Shown here piece by piece: positions 8,107 to 18,969 of a DNA stretch of 61,497 bases. The notes under the pieces are model-generated. The model ran no database searches. It saw only the letters and a program-made list of their open reading frames with translations, and had not been told where the DNA came from. The stretch lies in IMG/VR virus record IMGVR_UViG_3300030104_001836, positions 1 through 61,497 of that record; one strand, written 5' to 3'. Positions within the stretch are counted from its first letter, which is position 1. Each line of letters opens with the position of its first letter. The DNA is from a virus. Taxonomy: Duplodnaviria > Caudoviricetes. The position numbers and the translations under genes were made by a program.

Positions 8107-11100
8107 CTAGTCTACCAGTTGAGAAAAATCTAAACCATAGTATTTTTCTAATGCTTTAATTTGATCAATAATTTCTAGTCTTTGTGTTTTAGGTGCTAAT
8201 TTTAAATCTTTGTCTATTTGACTAAAAAATGAATCTTTAATCATTCTTTTAATACCAGTCCTACTAATTTCTATACCATTTTTAATAGCTTCTTCTATAA
8301 TAAATGTAAGTGCAACATTAAGATTTTCATAATCATCACCATATTTACGAACAGCAATGTTAATATTAGTTCTAACATCTTCTAAACTTTTAAGTTTTTT
8401 TTCTTTATTAGAACGAATATTTTGCGTTAAATCATTAAATTGTGCAACCTTTGTAGGTTCAAAACCAAATGTCATTCTAAATACATCACTTAATGTTAAT
8501 TCATATTTAATACTTTGATTTTTATAAGGGTTTGTATACACAGGTTTTTGATCACCTTGTAATGTTTCAGCCATTTTATTTGTAAATAATTCTGTATCTG
8601 TAGCTATTGTAATAAGAGGCATACCACCAGCCATAGCTTCTATAGATTTTAAAGGTTTAAATGCTGGAGATAAATTAACTAAATGATCTACAGCAGTAGC
8701 TCCTTCTTGTTTTAGTTTACTAGATGTAATTAATGTATTAACAAAAGGCCCATAAAAATCTGAAATTTCTGATGGTAAAAATTTATCACCAAATCCAACT
8801 CTATTTGTTAAGTTAATACCTACACCTGTGCCACCTTCAGATATAATTGCTGGAGCACCATGAGTAATAAATTGACCAACCATTCCATTTAAATTTCCTT
8901 TAGCACTTTCATTAATTGCCCATTCTTTTAAATCTTCATCTGGTTCGTATTCTCCACCAGTAAACAATGATATAAGTTGACTTAATAACATATATGCTGG
9001 ATGACCTAATGCACCAGCTAATACAAATGTAGATGCTAAAAATCTAGGAATTTCTGCACCTCGTAAACCAGATATAAATACTAACTCTTGTATAAACCAG
9101 TTTTTAAATTGTAATGGCACACGCAAAAATGTATTTCTAAGCACACCGGGTTTAGCCGCATTATCATAACTAAATTGTTGTTGTTGTATTGCAAACAATC
9201 CAGATTTAATTGCTTGTTCTCTATTTTTTCCTTGTTTTTCTGCTTTAATGTATCCAGCAAAAAATGATGTAGCTCGGTTTAAAGACTCTGCACTTTGAAA
9301 CCATAACATAGATAGTTGACCAAGTTTTGATTGCTCTGTAAATATGTCTGGTGCTCTGTCAGAATAAAAATATGAAGATTTAATTTCTGCTTTTTGTGCA
9401 AGTAATAAAGCATCCATTGCCGCATTAACTTTACTAGCACTATAATTTTTTCTATTTTCTATAATTTCTCTGTAATCATTTCTAGCTAATCTATACAAAG
9501 CAGGAGTAGCTCTTCTAAATCCAGCAGATGTAAGAACAGCACCCATTTTACTATAAGTGTTTAAACCTATTTGTGATAAGTTAACAAGAGCAGATGATAA
9601 ATTAAAGAAAGCTCCAAGTTTTAAATGAGCAGACAAAGATAACATATCGCCTGTAATGGCACGACTTTTTCTTTGTGTTTTACCCATTGATCTTGCCATC
9701 ATTATGGATGTTGCACCACCAATAACAAGAGGAGCAACTGGGCCACCTATAATAAATGGTGTTGCAATAGCACCTATACCTGCCGCATAAAATACTTTTT
9801 TAGGAACAGATTTTTCTAAAGTGTTTAATGCATTGTCTACACTTCTTTCTAAACTTTGAGGGTTATTATTTAAATCACTCCACCAACTTCTTAAATAACT
9901 AGCTATTGGTTCAGCATCACCAGATACTTCACTAACTTCACCCCAACCTTTACGTTCCATAAGGTTTACATAATCATACTTTAATTCATCCATGTAAACA
10001 TACTTAGAAACAGAACCAGCAAATGTTCTAAATACTTTGTCTAAGTTTTTATCATATCCAGCAACACCTCTTCTTTTTAAAGAAAACTCTGGTATTCTTC
10101 TTCTGTTTTTTCTTTTCATTACATCTTTGATATTACCTCGTAACTCTTCAGCAGTGTATTTTTCTGATAAATTTTCAGTTAAAGAGTTCATAATTGATCT
10201 GTATTCTTGATCATTTAATACAGTAGCATCGTTAGAATATATTTGTAAATCAGTAGGTTCAACACGAATTACATCTGTAGGATTATTTTTTATGTGTTCT
10301 TGTGCCGCTTTTATTGCATCTTCTTTACTACTAAAAAATAAAGTATTTTTACTAGATTCAACAGCACTTGCTATTGATTCTATTTCTGCATCAGTTCTGC
10401 CTTGGGCTTTCAATCCTTCTATAGCTTGTTGGCTTAATTGAGGAGTAATTAAATTTTCATATATTTCATTGTTATTTTCATCTACCTCTTTTAAAACTTT
10501 TAATTTAAAATTACCAAAAAATTTATGTGGTACATAACCAACTTTTCTTCTTACAGATGTGCTTTGTAATTTATTTTCTTCAATGTAATATTTTTGATAA
10601 GCATTAATAAAAGAATTAAATGTTGTAGGTGACGTATTAATTAATGGTATACTATAAATTCTTTCATCTATTTCTAATAATTCAGCTAATTGCGTTTGTG
10701 GATTACCAATACCATTTCTTATTTGTCGCATTTTATTAGATCGTTGTACCATTAATCTTTTAAAGTCAGATAAAGAATCTGGACTAATTAAACTATTTAA
10801 ACGAGTTCGTATTAATGCTTGTGCCGATCTTACTTTAGGCAACATACTTCTTCTGTGTTGATCTATATATTTACCAATTTTATCAAATAACAATCTAATT
10901 TCTTTGTACATTGCTATTTCATTGTTACTAAACTTAACAGATTTAATTTTATTTATTTCATTAGTGCTAAATCCTTGACTTCTTAAATCTGCTATTTCTT
11001 GTTTAGTTAAAGTAAAACCTTCTTGTAATTCTTTATCAGTAAATACTTTTTGTGATGCATCACCAACAAACAATATATCAACAACTTTAGAAAATTGTGA

Positions 11101-14100
11101 TCCTTTATATTTAGTTCTAATATTTTTGTATCTATCAATAAAAGTTTTAGATCGTACTCGTATTTTAGATTCATACTCTATTGCTTTTTGAATTAACTTG
11201 GCTATTGATTTATCTTTTAATTGATTAGCAGTAACATAAGTTGGTAAAATATATTTTAAAAGAATTGTAAAACTTGGAAGAATACCTTCTTTAGTTGTTT
11301 TAGATAAGGTTTCTTCTGGTATATGTATTCTATCTGTAGATGATCTATCTTTATCAATAAATGGATCAATTCTTTTTTTGTTTTTTATAATCTTAAACAA
11401 TGAAGTAAGGGTATTCCTTGACCTTTTTATAACATTATCTTTAGTATTATTTTCATTCATGTCTGGAGGAGTAGCCATTGCACCAACTGATCTTGGTGTA
11501 GGGTCTCCTTCATTCTGTAAAATAACTTTTTCTTTAGATTCTTTTGCTATTTCTCTTTCTTTAATAGTTTGAAAGTTAATTCCATTTTCTGCATAATAAG
11601 GTAAAACATAATTTTCTAATACATCTAATTTAGTTGTAGCAGACCATGTTCTACCATCAGATGACTTTTTAAAATCTAAGTCAACCATGCTTTCACTACT
11701 CTTATCTAATCCTCTTTCTATTAAATCTTTTCTTGTAGTAAATACAGTTGCACTATCTCCTCCTGTTTTTTGTATACGCACATCTCCACTATAGGTTTTT
11801 AATTCACCAAATTTACTATTGTAAAGATATGACGTTGCCGCTTGGTAATCAAGCAGAACAGGAATACTAGCTTCTTCTTTTTCATGTTTATAGTTTTTAG
11901 GCATAACAATAGTTTGTATTATTGTACCATCGTTTCTTTGTAGTTTAGCAACTTGACCACCTTTAACAATAGCTGATCCAGTTAACAAATTGCCTGTAAC
12001 AATATACCTTGTTTCTCTTACATTTTCTTGACCAGATACAAACAATTGATCAATTGATTTTCCTTCCGGTGTTGTTGATGCATTTTCAATTCTATTTTCA
12101 GATGATAAATTTCCTTGGTTATCAATAAATCTTGATAAACCTAATGTAATTTTTTGTGCATCACCTTGTGCTAAAGCTATTTTAATTTTAAAACTACCAG
12201 TATTTGTAGCTGTAGATGTTCCTTCATGTTTTCTATCAAGAATAATACCATGTTCAACTATAGCGTTATCTTTTCCTGTGTTTAAAGAAATCCTTACTTG
12301 TGTTCCTACAGGAAAACTTTTTATATTTCTTGTTATTTGATTTTTAACATCTTGTAATTTTTTAACTTGTGATTGTATTTGTGCTGGTTTTTTTGTTGTG
12401 TCTTGACGAATTTTTTCTATAGCAGTATCATATATTTCAACAGCTTGATTTAATTGTTTTTCATTATATTCATCAACTTTTTCTTGAACATTTTTTGTAT
12501 TTAATTCTACATTTTCTGTAGTTAAATCTAAAGTAGTTCTTAATTCTTTTTGTAATTGTAAAGGTGTTAAAGGTTTAGTTTTTTTATTAATAGATACTTG
12601 TTCCATGTAAACTGGTTGTTGAAATATAGTTCCAGTTGTTGAACCATCTTGTATCATATCTACTTCACCAATAGATATTGCATCTGCTTTAGTTAGATTA
12701 GCCATATCTAATGTGTTAGTTCCAAATGCTGTTTCTTCTTCTTTTAACTCTACATATCTTTTTGCAACAAAATCATAATATTCAGTAGCTAATGCTGGAT
12801 CAAATATTAATAAACTACTAGAAACTTTATTAGCAATACCATCTATTTTTCCTGTTAAATCTATATCTAATACATCTCTAATTTCTGCATGAGATTCTAA
12901 AAATTCTTTTGTAACATTATCTCCTAAAGTATTAAAGAAATCTAAAGAGTCCGATGTAGTGTAAACTGAGTCTTGACCACCAGTAACAGTAGCATTTAAT
13001 GATGCCATTTTTTTTGCTAACATAGAAGATAGTCTTTGTTCTGCTGGATGATCAGTTGTCATTATAGTATACTTAGGAAGACTTACTTGTCCTGTTCTAA
13101 ATATACGACCTAACATTTGTAGGTAAGTATTAATTTCTGGTTCAGCTTCTAAGACAATCATGTGTCTTTGTTTTTTATCTTTAGCTCTTTGATCAGAATG
13201 CATAGAGTAACCAGTAGATGCACTTTGATTTATAACTAATACATCTAAGTCACCATTTTGAAAACTATCTATTCTTCTTCTTTTTTTAATAGAGGAGTCA
13301 CCTCTTGGTGTTATAATACCCTTTGAATCTATAGCGTATTGTCTACCTGTAATTTCTCCTACTTTAATATTAGAATTTCGTAAATTGTTAATAATATTAT
13401 CTACTGGATTTAAAGTTAAATTACCAAAATCAGTATCTCTTATTCTACCTTTTAATTCTTCAATTTGTTCTACTAAATTACCTTCACCAAATTCATTAAC
13501 TTCTTCATTAGTTAATTTTTTTCTTGCAGTATAAATAGGAACATCTGCTTTTGGTACTTTAACAGACATAGAATATTCTAAAGCACGATCTAGATACTTT
13601 AATAATAAATCATTATAAGTAAGTGTAATTCTATCACCAGCTTTTAAACTTTTATCTGCCATTATTTGACGAAGTAAATTTTCACCTGTTCGTGAAACTG
13701 TAATAACAACTTTTCTTTGATTGTTTTTTACTTCATTGTTTGCATAATTAACAGCATCGTTTACTTTAAAACTTGTCATTAACATTGTAGAAATATTGTA
13801 CATTTGTGATTTAAAATCACTAGGAACAACTCTACCTTGTAAACCTGTTTTTGCTTGTGCAGATGCAAAATCTGGATCAGAAGATGCAATTTTTTTAGCT
13901 ATGTCAGATAATTGCATATCAATTAAATGTATGTCTAAAAATAAATCAGAAATTTGTTTTGCTAATTCTTTATCGTGTACAACACCTTTTCCATCATTGT
14001 AAACACTATACTCTACACCATCAAAACTTCTTTCAACACGTCTATATTGACCTGTTTGTGCTAACATATTAGTTACAATTTGTTGTAAAGGAATACCTCT

Positions 14101-17100
14101 TGTTTGCATAACATCAACAAATTGATCAGAATCTGGTATAGATTCTTGTATATCTGTATTCATATACAAATCCATAACAACAGGATTTTTAGCCCATGTT
14201 GCAGAAGAAAATACTGCACCTCTAGAATTATTTAAAGCGTGTCTAATAAAAGTAGCACGAGTATTTATTTTGTCAGCTTTTACTTTTCTATTAGAACTAC
14301 CACCAGCGTTGTGACTTTCATCTAAAATAAATATAGCATTTGGTGCAATTGATTCTATAAAATTATGTCTAGCTTTATTAATAGGAGTTTTAAAACCTTG
14401 TTCATCTGCTTTTGAATCTCTATTTAATTGATAATAAGTTGTAAAAATATAATCATAATTATTTTCTAACATACCTTGATCACTAGATAACTTATTTAAT
14501 AAAGCCTCATGTTTTTCTCTTGTTTCAGTTTTAAAACCTTCTTCATTAAGAGAACTTAAATCTACAGTATGATTATTGTCAGTAGGTAATATTTTCATAT
14601 TAGATACATCTTCGCCAATATCTTTCATATCACGAATCATATCAGTATATAAACCAGATTTATGTGTAACAAAAACAACGTGTTGAGCATTTTTCTTTGC
14701 ATATCGCATAAGTGCGGCTACAACTCTACCTTTACCTATTCCTGTTTGATCACCTAAAACAAATCCTTTGTTTGCTTTTAATTGATCAATAGCTAAACCT
14801 AATGCTTCTATTTGTTCTGAACCAAATTTATCATTTACTTCATCTAAACTCATATCTAAATTATCAGCAACATATTGTTTAATGTCACCAACACGAACAT
14901 CTAAGTTACGCAATCCTTTACCAGAAGATGCTAATAACTCTATTGGCATATGAGTGTCTAAAGAATTACCTTTTACTTTAGGATTATATTTAGTTTGAAA
15001 TAATGTATTTCTTTCACCTTGAACATTTTTATATTCAGATTGTATATCTGTAGCAAAACGAACAAATGCACCCATAGATGTTTTCCATTGTTCACTATTA
15101 CTTCTAGCTTCGTTTTTTTGTTCTGGTGTTAAAGAAGTATCAATAAATGATCTGTCAATATCATTAATTAATGATTTCATTGCACTTTGAAAAGGCAATC
15201 CAGCTTTACTATGTTGATCTAATCTTTTTAATAATTGAGGTTTTACTTTATCATATGATTCTTTTGTAGGTTTTATAGTAGGAACACCAAATATTTCTGC
15301 TCCATATTCTACTTGTCCTACACCAGAATCTGGAGTAGCAGAAGCTCCTGCATCCTCTGGAGGTGTTATTCTAGATTTTAAATCATTTAAACTACTAGCA
15401 AAATCATCAAAATCTTCTTCAAGTTTTTCTTGATGATATCTATTTATGTTAGGTGATAACTCTGGATATTTATTTTTTGTTGTGTCATATATTTGTTGTA
15501 ATAACTCTTGTTGATCTTCCATTGTATCAATAAGAGTTTCCTCAATATCATTTTGTAAATAGCTTGGTATTTTAGTTTTTTTAAATCCTTGTAAAGTAGT
15601 AGCATCATAATCTAAATATACTTCTTCAAAAATGTCATAATCATATGTAAAAACATCTTTAATAATTTGTTTATCGTTATTATTTAATCCTTCTATCTTT
15701 CCGATGTCACTGGCGAGGCTTCGTTCAGCCACGACATTATCGTGCTTTCGTTGAGCGTTGTCTCGTAATTCTTGTTGGGTTTCAGTTGTATCGGGAACTG
15801 AACTTGATTCAATTCCTGTGACAGTATCTCCCAACTGTCCAGACACATTTCCAGTAATGTTGTCCCCAACGATCCTTCCTTCAACTTCGTTTCTAGATTG
15901 AACATCCTGTCCCTCGATGGGATCAACAGATTCATCCTCTCTTCTAGGTCTTCCTCGTTCTCCGCTAGTATCTGGAGTCGGTTTGCTAACAGATGTAGGT
16001 ACTCCTCGTACCCCAGTTGTAACTCGTTCTGATGACCCACTAACGTCAGTATCGGGTTGCTCTCTACTGCCCAGAACGCTTTCGCCTCTTTCAACGTCAG
16101 TAATGTCGGTAATTGTTTCAGTGTCTCGCTCACTCACTTCCTCCTTTTGTTCTGCGAACTCCGGTAGGGGAGGAGTCTCTGGTGGTTTTTTATCATAGTT
16201 TTTATTTTTAATATACTTAATTGCATCTTTTATTGGTTTTACCTTAATTTCTTTGGTTTTTTTTCTAATTAATTTACCAGTTGCTTCTTCTTTAATGTCT
16301 AAAGTTGCTTTATTTATTTCATTTATTAAAATTTGAAAATCATTTGGATTACTAGGATTAGTTTGATTTACTAAATATAATCTATCTAATCTATTAGTAT
16401 TTGTAAGTTCATTAACTCTTTGTGCATATGCACTTTCTACATCTTGTAAATATTTTTTACCTGCTACGGATGGATCTATAATTTCTCTTCTATATGCATC
16501 TATAGCATTATAATATTGATTTAGTTTTGTTAATGGTGATCTAGGATCATATAATTTAAATATACCTTGACCATAAGTTATATCGTCTTCTTTTTTTTGT
16601 ACAGCTTGTTCTCTTTGAGTTACTTTATCTTCTACTACAGGTGTTTCTTTTGTAACTGCATCAGTATCTTCTAATGTAGATAGAAAACCAGCCATTTCAT
16701 CTTCTGTTAAAACATTTTTTTCTTCTTCTTTTTTAACAGGCTCAACAGGTGTAGTAGTAGGTTCAGCAAATATTTTTTCAGCCGTAGTTAAAGGTTTTTC
16801 CTCAACAACAGGTGCAACAGCTTCTGGTGTAGTCTCTTCTACTACAGGAGTTTCTTTTACTACAGGAGTAGGTTGTTCTACTGGTCTACCTTCTAATTCA
16901 GCTATTCTTTTATTAATAGCATCAAAGTTTTTTTGTACTGTTTTGTTTTCTAATTTGCCTTGTTCTATATATCTAGATGTAACTTTTAATGCAGATAAAT
17001 TATTTTCTTGAGATAATAAATTATCTAATGGTAATTGTGTTAGTTCATCTTTAAGAGTTTCATTGTCACTTGCAATGGCTTTACCCATTTGTCTATTCCA

Positions 17101-18969
17101 ACCATTGTCACCTGTAATAGAATCTACTTTAATTTTAGGTGTAGGTGTTGGCTTACCTTTTTCAAATTGTTCTCTTTTTTTTGTAAGTTCTTCTAATCCT
17201 TCTTCTAAACCAGTTTTAATTTCGCCTTGCTCATCTCTAATAAGATCATCTTTAGGTAATTGTTTTTGTAAAGATTCTATTTGTGTATCTAATTTTTCTA
17301 TTTTTGGTTTATTAATTTCTTTTTGTTCTTCTGAAAAAAAAGGATTGTCTAAACTTGTTTTTTGTAAAGTTAAATCTGTAATTTCTTTTTGTATGTCTAA
17401 TGCACTTTTATCTGTTTTATCTACAACTTCTTCTTCTACAACACTTTCTTCTATATCATCTCTTGATTGAAATTGTGGTTTACCTTCTTCAAGATTTTTT
17501 TGTTGCATTTCTTCATATGCATCAACTTTAGTTTTAGTTTCTGGTTTATCTAACCAATCTATTTTTAAATCTCTATCTAAAGGTTCTTCAACAATACCAC
17601 CATCATCTAGTTCAACTCTTATGTTTTTACTTGTAGACCCATCATCATTAAGAACAACAGGATATTCTACAACACGACCTTTTCCTATAGGTTCACCAGA
17701 TTTAGTTAATACAATGTTATTAGAACCAACAGGAGGATATCCATCTGGAGAACTATCTGGTGCTACTTCATCTGGTGTTCCAACTTCAGTTGCTTCTTGA
17801 GTTGCTTTTTCTGTATCACCCTCAATAGTTTCAGAACCATCATCTTCTAAAATAGTTTTTTCATCTACTTTATCTTCTAGTTTTTCTTTTCTTTGTACAC
17901 CACCACTTATGCCACCAAATACAAGACCAGCTACAAATCCCGGCCCAAATTGTTCACCTGCATAATCAAATGTTTCTCTTTCTTTATTGTATGTTTGTTC
18001 TATTAAATTTTGTAAAACATTTTGAAATTCTTCTGTTCCACCTTCCCATACACCTTGAGTAACTGATTGTTTAAGTATATTAGCAATTCTACTTTTTACT
18101 CCCGGAACAACTTTATTAAAACGATTTAATAATATTTGAACAGGTAAATAATCAGCAGAACCCGGAGCAACACCAAGTATAGTTGCCATAACAACATCAG
18201 TTTCATCAGTGTCACCATCAAAAGCATATACACGATCTACAGATTCGCCACCTTCCATTGCTATTGCAGTTCCAAGACCAGCTACAGTTCCAACACCAAA
18301 TGGAGCACCAACAACTGAAGCACCTATAATAGGAATAGTGCTACCAATACCTTCAAAACCTTTGTATATTGTATCTGCTAATTTATTATCTTTCCATCGT
18401 TGATCTTGCGGAAATGTTTCTTGTGCAAATTGTTGTAATTCTTCACCAGCTTTAAAAAACTCTGACTCTTTAGCAGAATATTGATTTCTATATGTGTCAA
18501 CTATTTGTTCTGCTCTATCAACAATTTCTGGACTATATTGATCTTTTTCATTTAATATACTAAGAGCGGCTCTATATTGTGCAGTTACTTCCTGTAAATC
18601 ACCAGAAAAATAATCTGGCATTTTTTCAAGACCAGCACCATATTTAAGACCAGAACCTACAGCTTGTATTGTACCAGCAGGTATTGCAGATGTAATTAAA
18701 TCTGCACCAAATTCTGGAAGAGTAGTTAAACCAAATGGTTTTTCTTCTTTAGGTTCTTCTTCTATTGTTTCGGGGGAGGGTTGTACAGACGTTCCTGTAA
18801 GTCTAGATGTGTCAAATGCATTTGTATCTGTGGTAAGAAATTCAGTAAATAATCTTTTATCTGGATATCTATCTTGATATTGACTGTATAACTCGTTTAT
18901 TAAATCTTCATCACTATATAGTAAAAAATTTCTATTATCTTCACGAGCAAGTTCTAAAGGTGTTGGCAT
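8107..18969 (-). CDS. Giant polyvalent internal-virion/ejection protein with Strawberry-notch SF2 helicase
   Basis: 3620 aa; GDQTGIGKGR, ILDESHN, SSATWAK, GEITGR, SASTGYSMHS, QMLGRIFRTGQ; last gene of the ejection-protein cluster. Confidence 0.8.
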   Translation of the reverse strand: MPTPLELAREDNRNFLLYSDEDLINELYSQYQDRYPDKRLFTEFLTTDTNAFDTSRLTGTSVQPSPETIEEEPKEEKPFGLTTLPEFGADLITSAIPAGTIQAVGSGLKYGAGLEKMPDYFSGDLQEVTAQYRAALSILNEKDQYSPEIVDRAEQIVDTYRNQYSAKESEFFKAGEELQQFAQETFPQDQRWKDNKLADTIYKGFEGIGSTIPIIGASVVGAPFGVGTVAGLGTAIAMEGGESVDRVYAFDGDTDETDVVMATILGVAPGSADYLPVQILLNRFNKVVPGVKSRIANILKQSVTQGVWEGGTEEFQNVLQNLIEQTYNKERETFDYAGEQFGPGFVAGLVFGGISGGVQRKEKLEDKVDEKTILEDDGSETIEGDTEKATQEATEVGTPDEVAPDSSPDGYPPVGSNNIVLTKSGEPIGKGRVVEYPVVLNDDGSTSKNIRVELDDGGIVEEPLDRDLKIDWLDKPETKTKVDAYEEMQQKNLEEGKPQFQSRDDIEESVVEEEVVDKTDKSALDIQKEITDLTLQKTSLDNPFFSEEQKEINKPKIEKLDTQIESLQKQLPKDDLIRDEQGEIKTGLEEGLEELTKKREQFEKGKPTPTPKIKVDSITGDNGWNRQMGKAIASDNETLKDELTQLPLDNLLSQENNLSALKVTSRYIEQGKLENKTVQKNFDAINKRIAELEGRPVEQPTPVVKETPVVEETTPEAVAPVVEEKPLTTAEKIFAEPTTTPVEPVKKEEEKNVLTEDEMAGFLSTLEDTDAVTKETPVVEDKVTQREQAVQKKEDDITYGQGIFKLYDPRSPLTKLNQYYNAIDAYRREIIDPSVAGKKYLQDVESAYAQRVNELTNTNRLDRLYLVNQTNPSNPNDFQILINEINKATLDIKEEATGKLIRKKTKEIKVKPIKDAIKYIKNKNYDKKPPETPPLPEFAEQKEEVSERDTETITDITDVERGESVLGSREQPDTDVSGSSERVTTGVRGVPTSVSKPTPDTSGERGRPRREDESVDPIEGQDVQSRNEVEGRIVGDNITGNVSGQLGDTVTGIESSSVPDTTETQQELRDNAQRKHDNVVAERSLASDIGKIEGLNNNDKQIIKDVFTYDYDIFEEVYLDYDATTLQGFKKTKIPSYLQNDIEETLIDTMEDQQELLQQIYDTTKNKYPELSPNINRYHQEKLEEDFDDFASSLNDLKSRITPPEDAGASATPDSGVGQVEYGAEIFGVPTIKPTKESYDKVKPQLLKRLDQHSKAGLPFQSAMKSLINDIDRSFIDTSLTPEQKNEARSNSEQWKTSMGAFVRFATDIQSEYKNVQGERNTLFQTKYNPKVKGNSLDTHMPIELLASSGKGLRNLDVRVGDIKQYVADNLDMSLDEVNDKFGSEQIEALGLAIDQLKANKGFVLGDQTGIGKGRVVAALMRYAKKNAQHVVFVTHKSGLYTDMIRDMKDIGEDVSNMKILPTDNNHTVDLSSLNEEGFKTETREKHEALLNKLSSDQGMLENNYDYIFTTYYQLNRDSKADEQGFKTPINKARHNFIESIAPNAIFILDESHNAGGSSNRKVKADKINTRATFIRHALNNSRGAVFSSATWAKNPVVMDLYMNTDIQESIPDSDQFVDVMQTRGIPLQQIVTNMLAQTGQYRRVERSFDGVEYSVYNDGKGVVHDKELAKQISDLFLDIHLIDMQLSDIAKKIASSDPDFASAQAKTGLQGRVVPSDFKSQMYNISTMLMTSFKVNDAVNYANNEVKNNQRKVVITVSRTGENLLRQIMADKSLKAGDRITLTYNDLLLKYLDRALEYSMSVKVPKADVPIYTARKKLTNEEVNEFGEGNLVEQIEELKGRIRDTDFGNLTLNPVDNIINNLRNSNIKVGEITGRQYAIDSKGIITPRGDSSIKKRRRIDSFQNGDLDVLVINQSASTGYSMHSDQRAKDKKQRHMIVLEAEPEINTYLQMLGRIFRTGQVSLPKYTIMTTDHPAEQRLSSMLAKKMASLNATVTGGQDSVYTTSDSLDFFNTLGDNVTKEFLESHAEIRDVLDIDLTGKIDGIANKVSSSLLIFDPALATEYYDFVAKRYVELKEEETAFGTNTLDMANLTKADAISIGEVDMIQDGSTTGTIFQQPVYMEQVSINKKTKPLTPLQLQKELRTTLDLTTENVELNTKNVQEKVDEYNEKQLNQAVEIYDTAIEKIRQDTTKKPAQIQSQVKKLQDVKNQITRNIKSFPVGTQVRISLNTGKDNAIVEHGIILDRKHEGTSTATNTGSFKIKIALAQGDAQKITLGLSRFIDNQGNLSSENRIENASTTPEGKSIDQLFVSGQENVRETRYIVTGNLLTGSAIVKGGQVAKLQRNDGTIIQTIVMPKNYKHEKEEASIPVLLDYQAATSYLYNSKFGELKTYSGDVRIQKTGGDSATVFTTRKDLIERGLDKSSESMVDLDFKKSSDGRTWSATTKLDVLENYVLPYYAENGINFQTIKEREIAKESKEKVILQNEGDPTPRSVGAMATPPDMNENNTKDNVIKRSRNTLTSLFKIIKNKKRIDPFIDKDRSSTDRIHIPEETLSKTTKEGILPSFTILLKYILPTYVTANQLKDKSIAKLIQKAIEYESKIRVRSKTFIDRYKNIRTKYKGSQFSKVVDILFVGDASQKVFTDKELQEGFTLTKQEIADLRSQGFSTNEINKIKSVKFSNNEIAMYKEIRLLFDKIGKYIDQHRRSMLPKVRSAQALIRTRLNSLISPDSLSDFKRLMVQRSNKMRQIRNGIGNPQTQLAELLEIDERIYSIPLINTSPTTFNSFINAYQKYYIEENKLQSTSVRRKVGYVPHKFFGNFKLKVLKEVDENNNEIYENLITPQLSQQAIEGLKAQGRTDAEIESIASAVESSKNTLFFSSKEDAIKAAQEHIKNNPTDVIRVEPTDLQIYSNDATVLNDQEYRSIMNSLTENLSEKYTAEELRGNIKDVMKRKNRRRIPEFSLKRRGVAGYDKNLDKVFRTFAGSVSKYVYMDELKYDYVNLMERKGWGEVSEVSGDAEPIASYLRSWWSDLNNNPQSLERSVDNALNTLEKSVPKKVFYAAGIGAIATPFIIGGPVAPLVIGGATSIMMARSMGKTQRKSRAITGDMLSLSAHLKLGAFFNLSSALVNLSQIGLNTYSKMGAVLTSAGFRRATPALYRLARNDYREIIENRKNYSASKVNAAMDALLLAQKAEIKSSYFYSDRAPDIFTEQSKLGQLSMLWFQSAESLNRATSFFAGYIKAEKQGKNREQAIKSGLFAIQQQQFSYDNAAKPGVLRNTFLRVPLQFKNWFIQELVFISGLRGAEIPRFLASTFVLAGALGHPAYMLLSQLISLFTGGEYEPDEDLKEWAINESAKGNLNGMVGQFITHGAPAIISEGGTGVGINLTNRVGFGDKFLPSEISDFYGPFVNTLITSSKLKQEGATAVDHLVNLSPAFKPLKSIEAMAGGMPLITIATDTELFTNKMAETLQGDQKPVYTNPYKNQSIKYELTLSDVFRMTFGFEPTKVAQFNDLTQNIRSNKEKKLKSLEDVRTNINIAVRKYGDDYENLNVALTFIIEEAIKNGIEISRTGIKRMIKDSFFSQIDKDLKLAPKTQRLEIIDQIKALEKYYGLDFSQLVD
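15693..16133 (-). CDS. Nested +1-frame gene inside the giant protein gene (146 aa)
   Basis: AAGGAGG 6 nt before a GTG start; outer-frame codons become C/G-ending over this span. Confidence 0.65.
   Translation of the reverse strand: MSETLKQLPTLLTLKEAKAFWAVESNPILTLVGHQNELQLGYEEYLHLLANRLQILAENEEDLEERMNLLIPSRDRMFNLETKLKEGSLGTTLLEMCLDSWEILSQELNQVQFPIQLKPNKNYETTLNESTIMSWLNEASPVTSER

What the first reader, a model, noticed from the sequence alone, without database searches (positions are those of the whole stretch)
15693..16133. Hidden nested gene overprinted inside the giant helicase gene
Seen: a 146-codon same-strand +1-frame ORF with a perfect AAGGAGG SD (16140-16146) 6 nt before a GTG start. 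Over this span the outer frame shifts from A/T-ending to frequent C/G-ending codons and encodes a disordered R/G/S/D linker, whereas the inner frame reads like a folded helical protein (YEEYLHLLANRLQIL, TIMSWLNE). It lies upstream of the helicase domain. Inference: a co-expressed partner (inhibitor, chaperone or loader) keeping the helicase inactive during assembly, forming a two-component system that annotation would miss.
Basis: partly seen in the sequence, partly recalled or inferred. Interest (0 to 1): 0.85.

Follow-up and report, generated by a model that had tools for sequence, protein, structure and literature searches.

The report
Hidden gene inside giant phage gene
A marine phage hides a conserved 146-codon gene, read in a shifted frame, inside the flexible-linker part of its giant helicase-containing protein gene; the gene looks real, but what its small acidic protein does is still unknown.

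Summary
The ORF 15693-16133 (minus strand) lies in the +1 frame of a 3620-aa gene. It has AAGGAGG 6 nt before its GTG start, and it sits on the highest G+C peak of this complete 61.5-kb phage genome.

It is very probably a real overlapping gene (about 0.88).
- A same-length ORF in the same frame and at the same place is nested in the homologous giant gene of three divergent marine lineages for which DNA was available. Each has GGAGG or AAGGAGG and a start codon. Two further lineages were inferred from codon compatibility.
- The inner reading scores far higher between lineages than the outer one (82-117 versus 22-67 bits).
- Outer third codon positions change from most to least variable.
- Both frames stay open against expectation.
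- AlphaFold2 gives the inner reading a fold (pLDDT 74) and leaves most of the outer reading unstructured.

The giant gene is a Strawberry-notch-helicase "polyvalent protein" in the virion/ejection gene block. The inner protein (pI 4.6) matches no known family or fold. The closest known architecture is lambda Rz/Rz1. Translation has not been shown.

The parts
8107..18969 (-). Outer gene: a 3620-aa giant polyvalent protein (P0002) with a Strawberry-notch-type helicase, lying in the virion/ejection gene block.
   Evidence: ORF. Pfam AAA_34, Helicase_C_4 and ResIII. 383 giant homologs with polyvalent-protein domains. Neighbouring DNA-ejection and virion structural genes.
15693..16133 (-). Nested +1-frame gene: GTG start, 146 codons plus a TAG stop at 15693-15695. 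Its product P0001 is a small acidic protein (pI 4.6) predicted to have an alpha/beta fold.
   Evidence: Distant homologs of the same length. Nested in the same frame in L010/L011 and L009. Frame-specific conservation. AF2 pLDDT 73.8. pI.
16140..16146 (-). Shine-Dalgarno sequence AAGGAGG, 6 nt upstream of the GTG start.
   Evidence: It is one of only 3 AAGGAGG on the minus strand of the 61.5-kb genome, and 30 of 57 window ORFs have an SD core. AAGGAGG or GGAGG lies at the same place in L009 and L010/L011.
16134..16136 (-). TGA stop in the inner frame directly before the GTG start. It closes the inner frame to any read-in from upstream.
   Evidence: TAA sits in the same position in L009 and L010/L011. 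One close variant reads TAA here (site 16135). Database variant P0006 reads W here.
15790..16152 (-). Outer-frame residues about 940-1060: a hydrophilic linker predicted to be unstructured. It carries most of the overlap.
   Evidence: AF2 of outer residues 907-1123: pLDDT below 50 and no secondary structure for model residues 34-154. Composition.
15634..16284 (.). G+C island, the highest in the genome.
   Evidence: By codon position.
12943..14820 (-). Strawberry-notch-like helicase module of the outer protein (residues 1384-2009), downstream of the nested gene.
   Evidence: Invariant helicase columns across 50 homologs.

Best explanation
The 441-nt stretch codes for two proteins.

Frame 0 is part of a giant virion-associated 'polyvalent' protein. 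Here it encodes only a hydrophilic, largely unstructured linker between variable N-terminal modules and the Strawberry-notch helicase module.

Frame +1 is a separate gene. Ribosomes start at the strong internal AAGGAGG-N6-GTG site, directly after an inner-frame stop, and make a 146-aa acidic alpha/beta protein of a family found only in this phage group. Selection acts mainly on the inner protein. The outer frame is kept open and hydrophilic but is otherwise nearly free to vary.

What is shown: the ORF, its start signals, conservation, the selection pattern and the openness of both frames. What is inferred: translation itself.

Function is inferred only. My best guess (about 0.35) is an accessory partner of the giant protein, for assembly, packaging or control. 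The grounds are that the gene is inherited as one block with the helicase module under different N-terminal modules, and that Rz/Rz1 offers an analogy. An independent anti-defence or host-takeover factor is about as likely (0.3).
For: 1. Homologs exist. phmmer of P0001 against 1.84 billion representative proteins gave 7 hits at E <= 0.001. Five are distant (34-46% identity, E from 5.5e-33 to 2.4e-4) and all are 129-146 aa long. They share the motifs FWA, LTLVG, an invariant arginine (R52) within a conserved L-L-x-x-R stretch, FPIQLK and an invariant C-terminal tryptophan (W135). The ATG of P0007 aligns with the window's GTG.

2. The arrangement is conserved. All 3 distant metagenome loci (L010/L011, which are identical in the overlap, and L009) carry the homolog as a 146/149-codon ORF in the +1 frame of a giant same-strand ORF. 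Each has GGAGG or AAGGAGG, an ATG, and a TAA directly before the ATG.

3. Two further lineages follow from codon compatibility. P0007 fits the +1 frame of giant P0014 (55% identical to P0002) at 132 of 145 positions on one diagonal, against 24-38 on the 8 neighbouring diagonals. P0010 fits P0016 at 134 of 146 and P0015 at 126 of 146.

4. The inner frame is the conserved one. Each frame was given its own optimal blastp alignment. Bits for outer/inner/third frame: window-L010 21.9/81.6/27.7; window-L009 48.5/93.2/38.9; L010-L009 66.6/117/36.2.

5. Outer third positions (which are inner second positions) are the least variable in the overlap.
- Fraction differing: 0.30-0.36 with an inner-guided alignment, 0.33-0.45 outer-guided, 0.29-0.40 DNA-guided.
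- In the flanks of the same genes they are the most variable: 0.53-0.58 for window-L011 and 0.68 for L009-L010.

6. Both frames are open in all 3 lineages. Synonymous permutation gives P(no stop) of 0.0017-0.016 for the inner frame and 0.0011-0.014 for the outer frame.

7. Outer GC3 in the overlap is 0.28-0.33 in four lineages whose background GC3 is 0.09, 0.27, 0.35 and 0.46.

8. Among close relatives there are 14 variable sites in the overlap. The inner frame has 6 nonsynonymous and 8 synonymous changes. The outer frame has 11 and 3. About 0.78 nonsynonymous is expected, giving binomial P of about 0.01 for the inner frame.

9. AF2 favours the inner reading: pLDDT 73.8 and pTM 0.72. The outer reading of the same DNA has pLDDT below 50 over about 120 residues.

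10. SD-led starts are normal in this phage: 30 of 57 ORFs have an SD core.
Against: - There is no direct evidence of translation. Contigs from RNA libraries cover the region (3 runs, 2 studies), but they show neither strand, level nor translation, and they may derive from DNA.
- DNA was available for only 3 independent lineages.
- A whole-gene sliding-window statistic (third-position identity minus the mean of positions 1 and 2, window vs L011, outer-guided global alignment) does not peak uniquely at the overlap. The top window is residues 2148-2209. The first half of the overlap is unremarkable and the second half has z of about 2.
- Only 1 of the 5 AF2 models exceeds pLDDT 70; the others are 48-59.
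- Inner-frame third-position G+C is 0.61, against about 0.13 for this genome's genes. This is atypical codon usage, although it is expected for an overprinted frame.
- On function, there is no family, fold or context clue.
Confidence: 0.88

Rival explanations
1. A chance ORF. A G+C-rich linker with few hydrophobic residues has few xTA/xTG codons, so the +1 frame is open by accident and nothing is translated from it.
For: +1-frame stops can arise only from outer codons with T at position 2, and the linker has few such residues (hydrophobic fraction 0.19). Given local codon usage, the open frame is only moderately unlikely in one genome (P 0.008-0.015). Long spurious antisense ORFs are common in this window.
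Against: - The inner frame is conserved as protein at 34-46% identity, with the same length, start position and SD, in divergent lineages.
- The inner frame scores 2-4 times the outer frame.
- Outer third positions are the least variable.
- The joint probability of open frames in 3 lineages is about 2e-7, the product of the P values.
Confidence: 0.04
2. A mosaic or horizontally acquired segment. On this view the G+C and GC3 anomaly marks DNA recombined in from a phage with higher G+C, without any second gene.
For: The genome is compositionally patchy, with gene GC3 ranging from 0.06 to 0.35. The giant gene is mosaic. Compared with the close relative L002, the interval 16200-16700 differs at 10-36 sites per 100 nt, while the overlap and the downstream part differ at 1-2 sites per 100 nt.
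Against: - Relatives with background GC3 of 0.27-0.46 keep outer GC3 at about 0.3 in the overlap. In BS-TP4 this is lower than the rest of its gene. That fits an amino-acid constraint on inner codon position 2, not an imported base composition.
- It does not explain the inner-frame conservation or the SD-plus-start.
- No foreign source was found.
Confidence: 0.03
3. A structured RNA or other nucleic-acid element (a regulatory RNA, or a packaging or replication signal) constrains the synonymous sites.
For: The 454-nt stretch folds somewhat better than shuffled versions: -120.7 against -110.6 +/- 4.8 kcal/mol, z = -2.1, with 3 of 100 shuffles folding as well.
Against: - No Rfam match at E <= 1.
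- No notable repeats in the region.
- No significant structure at the start sites of the 3 lineages (z from 0.07 to 0.51).
- The constraint has the three-base periodicity and amino-acid pattern of a protein.
Confidence: 0.03
4. The inner frame is read by programmed frameshifting from frame 0. This would give an N-terminal-module-plus-inner-domain fusion instead of a free 146-aa protein. The internal SD-like sequence would act as the frameshift stimulator.
For: SD-like sequences inside genes stimulate frameshifting in known cases such as prfB and dnaX (recalled, not from a call). The SD lies inside a translated frame.
Against: - An inner-frame stop lies directly before the start codon in all 3 lineages (TGA, TAA, TAA). 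Any shift upstream of it would terminate at once.
- A canonical start codon sits 6-9 nt after the SD in each lineage.
- I saw no slippery motif on reading the sequence.
Confidence: 0.04
5. A rival on function. The nested protein is an independent anti-defence or host-takeover factor that merely uses a sequence-tolerant linker as spare coding space. It would not bind the giant protein.
For: It is acidic in all 8 family members, with pI 4.3-5.3. Small acidic phage proteins are often anti-restriction DNA mimics (recalled, not from a call). For Rz/Rz1, the authors of PMC6139136 conclude that the only advantage of embedding is coding capacity (passages read).
Against: There is no match to anti-defence families, though PADLOC was not searched. 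Pfam, PHROGs, PDB and BFVD all gave nothing. The gene's constant position next to the helicase module in lineages with different N-terminal modules fits a functional tie, but it also fits plain linkage.
Confidence: 0.3

Closest known systems
Lambda Rz/Rz1 two-component spanin, 'embedded' architecture (PMC6139136, passages read)
   Same: A gene lies wholly inside a longer same-strand phage gene, in the +1 frame, with its own start. Part of the embedding segment of the outer protein is a flexible linker.
   Different: - P0001 is not an o-spanin. Reading the sequence shows no N-terminal lipoprotein signal or lipobox.
- It is 146 aa long and predicted to be folded, not a short proline-rich lipoprotein.
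- The outer gene is a 3620-aa polyvalent protein, not a lysis gene.
- Whether the two products interact, as Rz and Rz1 do, is unknown here.
Overprinted (de novo) viral genes, as reviewed in PMC3494269 and PMC8227390 (only search listings and the starts of abstracts were seen)
   Same: The family has a narrow phylogenetic distribution, with no relatives outside one phage clade. The codon usage of the inner frame lies further from the genome norm than that of the outer frame.
   Different: Here the embedded reading looks like the ordered, better-conserved protein, and the embedding reading is the disordered one. As I recall it, this is the reverse of the usual pattern. It leaves open whether the small gene or the linker came first.
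Polyvalent proteins of phages and conjugative elements (Iyer et al. 2017, PMC5512222; passages read)
   Same: The outer gene fits this class.
- It is a giant multidomain protein with a Strawberry-notch SWI2/SNF2 ATPase.
- Relatives carry DdrB-like ParB domains, N6-methylase and other polyvalent-protein domains.
- It is encoded among late virion genes.
   Different: That paper does not use the word 'overlapping' at all (0 occurrences). I found no description of a second gene embedded in a polyvalent-protein gene.
Phage P1 Dar system, in which small accessory proteins are needed to load DarB into capsids (recalled; only the DdrB passages of PMC5512222 were seen)
   Same: It offers a possible functional analogy: a large helicase-containing, virion-packaged anti-defence protein that depends on small co-expressed proteins.
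   Different: No sequence or fold similarity was found. In P1 the genes are separate, not overlapping. This is an analogy only.

Membership tests
Embedded same-strand overlapping gene (Rz/Rz1-type architecture) | The inner ORF lies wholly inside a longer ORF on the same strand, in another frame. | tested here: met
   15693-16133 lies inside 8107-18969, frame +1. The same holds in L010, L011 and L009.
Embedded same-strand overlapping gene (Rz/Rz1-type architecture) | The inner gene has its own translation start signals. | tested here: met
   AAGGAGG-N6-GTG in the window. GGAGG or AAGGAGG plus ATG in the relatives. SD use is general in this phage. Actual initiation was not tested.
Embedded same-strand overlapping gene (Rz/Rz1-type architecture) | Purifying selection acts on the inner reading, and the outer reading is kept open. 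| tested here: met
   One whole-gene scan was not decisive.
Embedded same-strand overlapping gene (Rz/Rz1-type architecture) | Both products are made, and in Rz/Rz1 they bind each other. | not testable with these tools
   No proteomics or ribosome profiling was available. The complex prediction gave no answer.
o-spanin (Rz1-like) | An N-terminal lipoprotein signal with a lipobox cysteine, in a short periplasmic protein. | tested here: not met
   The P0001 sequence has no N-terminal hydrophobic signal or lipobox. Its only cysteine is internal (EMCLDSW). The protein is 146 aa long and acidic.
Polyvalent protein (outer gene) | A giant multidomain protein of a phage or mobile element carrying conflict-related enzymatic domains, including an SNF2/Sno helicase. 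| tested here: met
   Pfam AAA_34, Helicase_C_4 and ResIII. The relative L011 adds ddrB-ParB. 383 homologs carry polyvalent-protein Pfam domains.
Polyvalent protein (outer gene) | Encoded among late or virion genes, and presumed to be packaged and injected. | tested here: inconclusive
   The neighbours match a DNA-ejection protein and virion structural proteins. Packaging itself was not tested.
De novo overprinted gene | The family is restricted to one clade, with no homologs elsewhere. | tested here: met
   - 7 hits in 1.84 billion representatives, all within this group.
- Among the genomes of 185,579 species, 56 stretches matched the FPIQLK-based pattern but none encoded a relative.
- Only 1 IMG/VR locus, a close relative.
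- No longer, fused forms (weak evidence).
De novo overprinted gene | The newer frame is the one with the more atypical codon usage and the more disordered product. | tested here: inconclusive
   Codon usage points to the inner frame as the newer one: third-position G+C of 0.61 against 0.31 for the outer frame and about 0.13 for the genome. Order and conservation point the other way.

The most novel reading that the evidence does not exclude
The nested protein is a dedicated partner of the polyvalent protein: a chaperone, packaging adaptor or off-switch for the Strawberry-notch helicase module. Embedding it in the linker makes 'helicase module plus its partner' a single recombination-proof cassette that can be shuffled under different N-terminal modules. 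If so, giant polyvalent-protein genes may commonly hide such accessory genes in their linkers. The candidate +1 ORF at the same place in Bacteroides phage BS-TP4 would extend this beyond the marine lineages.
Probability: 0.3. Interest if true: 0.75.

Novelty: new member of a known kind. Interest (0 to 1): 0.6.

Why it matters
Gene callers forbid long same-strand overlaps, so this gene is absent from annotation. It surfaced in databases only where contigs cut the giant gene.

It adds a well-supported example of an ordered protein encoded inside the disordered linker of another protein. In this example selection clearly favours the embedded frame.

It also points to the linkers of giant phage and plasmid polyvalent proteins, a large class with 383 relatives found here, as places to look for hidden accessory genes.

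The phage is widespread in marine metagenomes: 14 DNA runs hold at least half of the sampled words.

If the product controls or loads the injected helicase protein, it would be a handle on how such giant anti-defence proteins are assembled.

Tried and rejected
Searches for a name or fold for P0001 all came back empty.
- Pfam and PHROGs, with the single sequence and with all 8 family members: nothing below E = 0.03.
- PDB sequence profile: best E = 0.42.
- Foldseek against PDB and BFVD: best E = 3.7 and 2.3.
- ESM Atlas: no usable hit.

Complex prediction of the helicase module (residues 1325-2130) with P0001, using single sequences, scored 0.00 and returned 'no answer'. This is evidence neither for nor against binding.

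Searches for relatives gave little beyond what is used above.
- blastn of the region against GenBank phages: no match.
- IMG/VR scans found only one close relative and nothing for P0009.
- The alignment A1 was too variable to scan with.
- The genome-contig scan found no relative.
- The search for longer, fused forms found none (weak evidence).

Other checks led nowhere.
- Promoter and terminator scan: not above shuffled sequence, 5 promoter-like sites against 5.4 expected.
- RNA-library contigs cover the ORF, but they cannot show strand, level or translation. Their ends do not coincide.
- Parts of the stretch without RNA contigs say nothing.
- The whole-gene sliding third-position statistic was not specific to the overlap.
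- The first codon-compatibility scripts either required a matching prefix, which missed P0007, or timed out. They were replaced.

Bacteroides phage BS-TP4 has a 119-codon +1 ORF at the equivalent place, and it is the longest +1 open stretch in that gene. However, its homology to the family is borderline (hhalign probability 41%, P = 2.7e-4) and the per-frame blast is ambiguous. I treat it as a candidate only.

The Acinetobacter phage MD-2021a homolog has no nested ORF of 60 aa or more.

The contig context of P0007, P0009, P0011 and P0012 could therefore not be looked up. Supplementary files of PMC6139136 and PMC5512222 were not seen. They may list further embedded genes or architectures.
Full report
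**What is there.** The window is a complete 61,497-bp virus record. On the minus strand lies a 3620-aa ORF, 8107-18969 (P0002). Pfam finds AAA_34, Helicase_C_4 and ResIII at residues 1384-2009, which is a Strawberry-notch-type helicase.

The gene sits beside a gene matching 'DNA ejection protein' and among virion structural, portal and terminase genes. A search found 383 giant proteins with E <= 1e-10. They carry typical polyvalent-protein domains: ddrB-ParB, N6-methylase, LPD families and the 'PLxRFG' name. The outer gene is therefore a polyvalent protein in the sense of Iyer et al. 2017 (PMC5512222, passages read).

AAGGAGG at 16146-16140 is followed by 6 nt (AAGTGA) and then the GTG. The TGA in the spacer is an inner-frame stop. 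Of 75 ORFs of at least 100 aa in the window, this is the only one wholly nested in a longer same-strand ORF.

**Is it more than chance in this genome?**
- The stretch is the highest G+C peak of the genome: 0.493 against 0.32 +/- 0.048.
- In the outer frame, GC1/GC2/GC3 are 0.61/0.49/0.31 in the overlap and 0.45/0.35/0.09 in the rest of the gene.
- GC3 near 0.3 does occur elsewhere in this patchy genome, with a maximum of 0.35, so composition alone does not decide the matter.
- With the outer protein fixed, the +1 frame stays open in 0 of 20000 draws from rest-of-gene codon usage (mean 10.6 stops). It stays open in 1.5% of draws from local usage and in 0.8% of synonymous permutations.

**Comparative evidence.** A full HMMER search of P0001 against 1.84 billion representative proteins gave 7 hits. 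Two are near-identical variants. Five are distant (34-46% identity; E from 5.5e-33 to 2.4e-4), and all are 129-146 aa long. The alignment shows a normal protein-family pattern: FWA, LTLVG, an invariant arginine (R52) within a conserved L-L-x-x-R stretch, FPIQLK and an invariant C-terminal tryptophan (W135). The ATG of P0007 aligns with the window's GTG.

A metagenome scan returned 7 loci. Four are close relatives. Three are distant (L009, L010 and L011), and the last two are identical in the overlap. In all three distant loci:
- the homolog is a 146/149-codon ORF nested in frame +1 of a giant same-strand ORF;
- AAGGAGG or GGAGG lies upstream of an ATG;
- a TAA sits directly before the ATG.

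For two lineages I had proteins but no DNA, so I tested whether the small protein can be encoded in the +1 frame of a giant protein. P0007 fits giant P0014 (55% identical to P0002) at 132 of 145 positions on one diagonal, at the same place as in the window. The 8 neighbouring diagonals fit at only 24-38 positions. P0010 fits P0016 at 134 of 146 and P0015 at 126 of 146.

**Which frame is selected?** I gave each frame its own best local alignment:

| Pair | Outer (bits) | Inner (bits) | Third frame (bits) |
|---|---|---|---|
| window-L010 | 21.9 | 81.6 | 27.7 |
| window-L009 | 48.5 | 93.2 | 38.9 |
| L010-L009 | 66.6 | 117 | 36.2 |

Nucleotide differences are lowest at outer codon position 3, which is inner position 2. 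The fraction differing is 0.30-0.36 with an inner-guided alignment, 0.33-0.45 outer-guided and 0.29-0.40 DNA-guided. In the flanks of the same genes, position 3 is the most variable: 0.53-0.58 for window-L011 and 0.68 for L009-L010.

Both frames are open in each lineage although each should carry stops given the other. Permutation P is 0.0017-0.016 for the inner frame and 0.0011-0.014 for the outer frame.

Outer GC3 in the overlap is 0.28-0.33 in four lineages whose gene backgrounds are 0.09, 0.27, 0.35 and 0.46. This is what a constraint on inner codon position 2 would give.

Among close relatives and RNA-library contigs there are 14 variable sites in the overlap. The inner frame has 6 nonsynonymous and 8 synonymous changes. 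The outer frame has 11 and 3. About 0.78 nonsynonymous is expected, giving binomial P of about 0.01 for the inner frame. Between P0002 and P0014, the overlap is the least conserved segment of the outer protein (37% against 45-71% elsewhere), while the inner proteins are 44-46% identical.

**Results that weaken the case.**
- A whole-gene sliding statistic (window vs L011, outer-guided global alignment) does not single out the overlap. The top window is residues 2148-2209. The first half of the overlap is unremarkable and the second half has z of about 2. A/T-rich third positions in poorly aligned regions inflate that statistic.
- DNA exists for only three independent lineages.
- Nothing shows translation.

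**The two products.** AF2 with the 8-sequence family alignment gives the inner protein pLDDT 73.8 and pTM 0.72. The other four models score 48-59. The best model shows short strands at the FWA, LTLVG and FPIQLK motifs and seven helices.

The outer reading of the same DNA (5 sequences, 3 lineages) has pLDDT below 50 and no secondary structure over outer residues about 940-1060. A helix follows at about 1062-1090.

The outer reading is hydrophobic-poor (0.14-0.19), whereas the inner reading has 0.33-0.36. All 8 inner proteins are acidic, with pI 4.3-5.3. No family or fold match was found.

**How it most likely works.** The late mRNA is translated in frame 0 through a sequence-tolerant linker. 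Ribosomes also start at the internal SD and GTG and make the 146-aa protein. SD-led starts are usual in this phage: 30 of 57 ORFs have an SD core, and AAGGAGG occurs only 3 times on this strand. The inner-frame stop directly before the start in all lineages argues against read-in by frameshifting.

The function is not known. The nested gene stays next to the helicase module while the N-terminal part varies. It is preceded by 283 codons in L009, 945 in the window and 1721 in L011, which adds a ddrB-ParB domain. This fits a functional tie to the giant protein but also fits plain linkage. The one complex prediction gave no answer.

[quoted passage not shown] P0001 is not a spanin, however, since it has no lipoprotein signal. 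The case also fits the class of overprinted viral genes (PMC3494269 and PMC8227390, of which only listings and abstract starts were seen). Unusually, the embedded frame here looks ordered and better conserved.

I found no report of a gene embedded in a polyvalent-protein gene. PMC5512222 has 0 occurrences of 'overlapping', and the searches found nothing.

**Extent.** A candidate 119-codon +1 ORF lies just upstream of the helicase in Bacteroides phage BS-TP4. It is the longest +1 open stretch in that 5391-codon gene, but its homology is borderline. The Acinetobacter phage MD-2021a homolog has none.

**Verdict.** The nested gene is real with probability of about 0.88. Its function is open. It is a new member of a known kind, the embedded overlapping phage gene. 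It encodes a new protein family and sits in a new setting.

Noticed in passing
window 16200-16700 (outer residues about 757-923): Compared with the close relative IMGVR_UViG_3300030419_001198 (L002), this part of the giant gene differs at 10-36 sites per 100 nt. The nested-gene region and the downstream part differ at only 1-2 per 100 nt. The close giants P0004 and P0005 also have replaced or inserted N-terminal segments (3701 and 3930 aa). This suggests a recombination-prone variable module just upstream of the nested gene.
   Followed up: partly
L012 (Bacteroides phage BS-TP4, PQ571277.1) 8597-8956, + strand: A 119-codon +1-frame ORF (P0013) lies inside the 5391-aa giant gene, ending 45 nt before the helicase homology begins. 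It is the longest +1 open stretch in that gene. The outer reading there is again a Gly/Arg/Glu-rich linker, with GC3 lower than the rest of the gene. Homology to the family is borderline (hhalign P = 2.7e-4). There is no SD, as I would expect for a Bacteroides host.
   Followed up: partly
database proteins P0006 and P0008 (variants of the window's nested ORF): P0006 reads W where the window has the TGA before the GTG, which extends the inner ORF upstream to an ATG (177 aa). P0008 is a chimera that switches between outer-frame and inner-frame readings, probably because of indels in its source contig.
   Followed up: no
L011 13944-14267 (+2 frame of the giant gene; open stretch of 141 codons at gene offset 12359): This is a second long alternative-frame open stretch near the 3' end of the L011 giant gene. 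It has no counterpart among the longest off-frame stretches of the window's gene.
   Followed up: no
window 16169-16173 and 16140-16144: A CCUCC stretch 25 nt upstream can pair with the GGAGG of the internal SD in the predicted fold of the start region. The fold is no more stable than shuffled sequence (z = 0.07), and the pairing is absent from L009 and L010.
   Followed up: partly
window 12340-12530 (outer residues about 2148-2209): This is the top window of the whole-gene scan in which third codon positions are more alike than first and second positions between the window and L011 (D = 0.14). Amino-acid identity there is only 0.18. It is probably an alignment and A/T-composition artefact. 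No long off-frame ORF lies there.
   Followed up: no
whole window: The phage is common in marine samples. 14 DNA runs from several studies hold at least half of the sampled words of 15000-17000, and 6 runs recorded as RNA hold part of it. About half of the genes use SD-led starts, so a Bacteroidota host seems unlikely, although the nearest named relative of the giant gene is a Bacteroides phage.
   Followed up: partly
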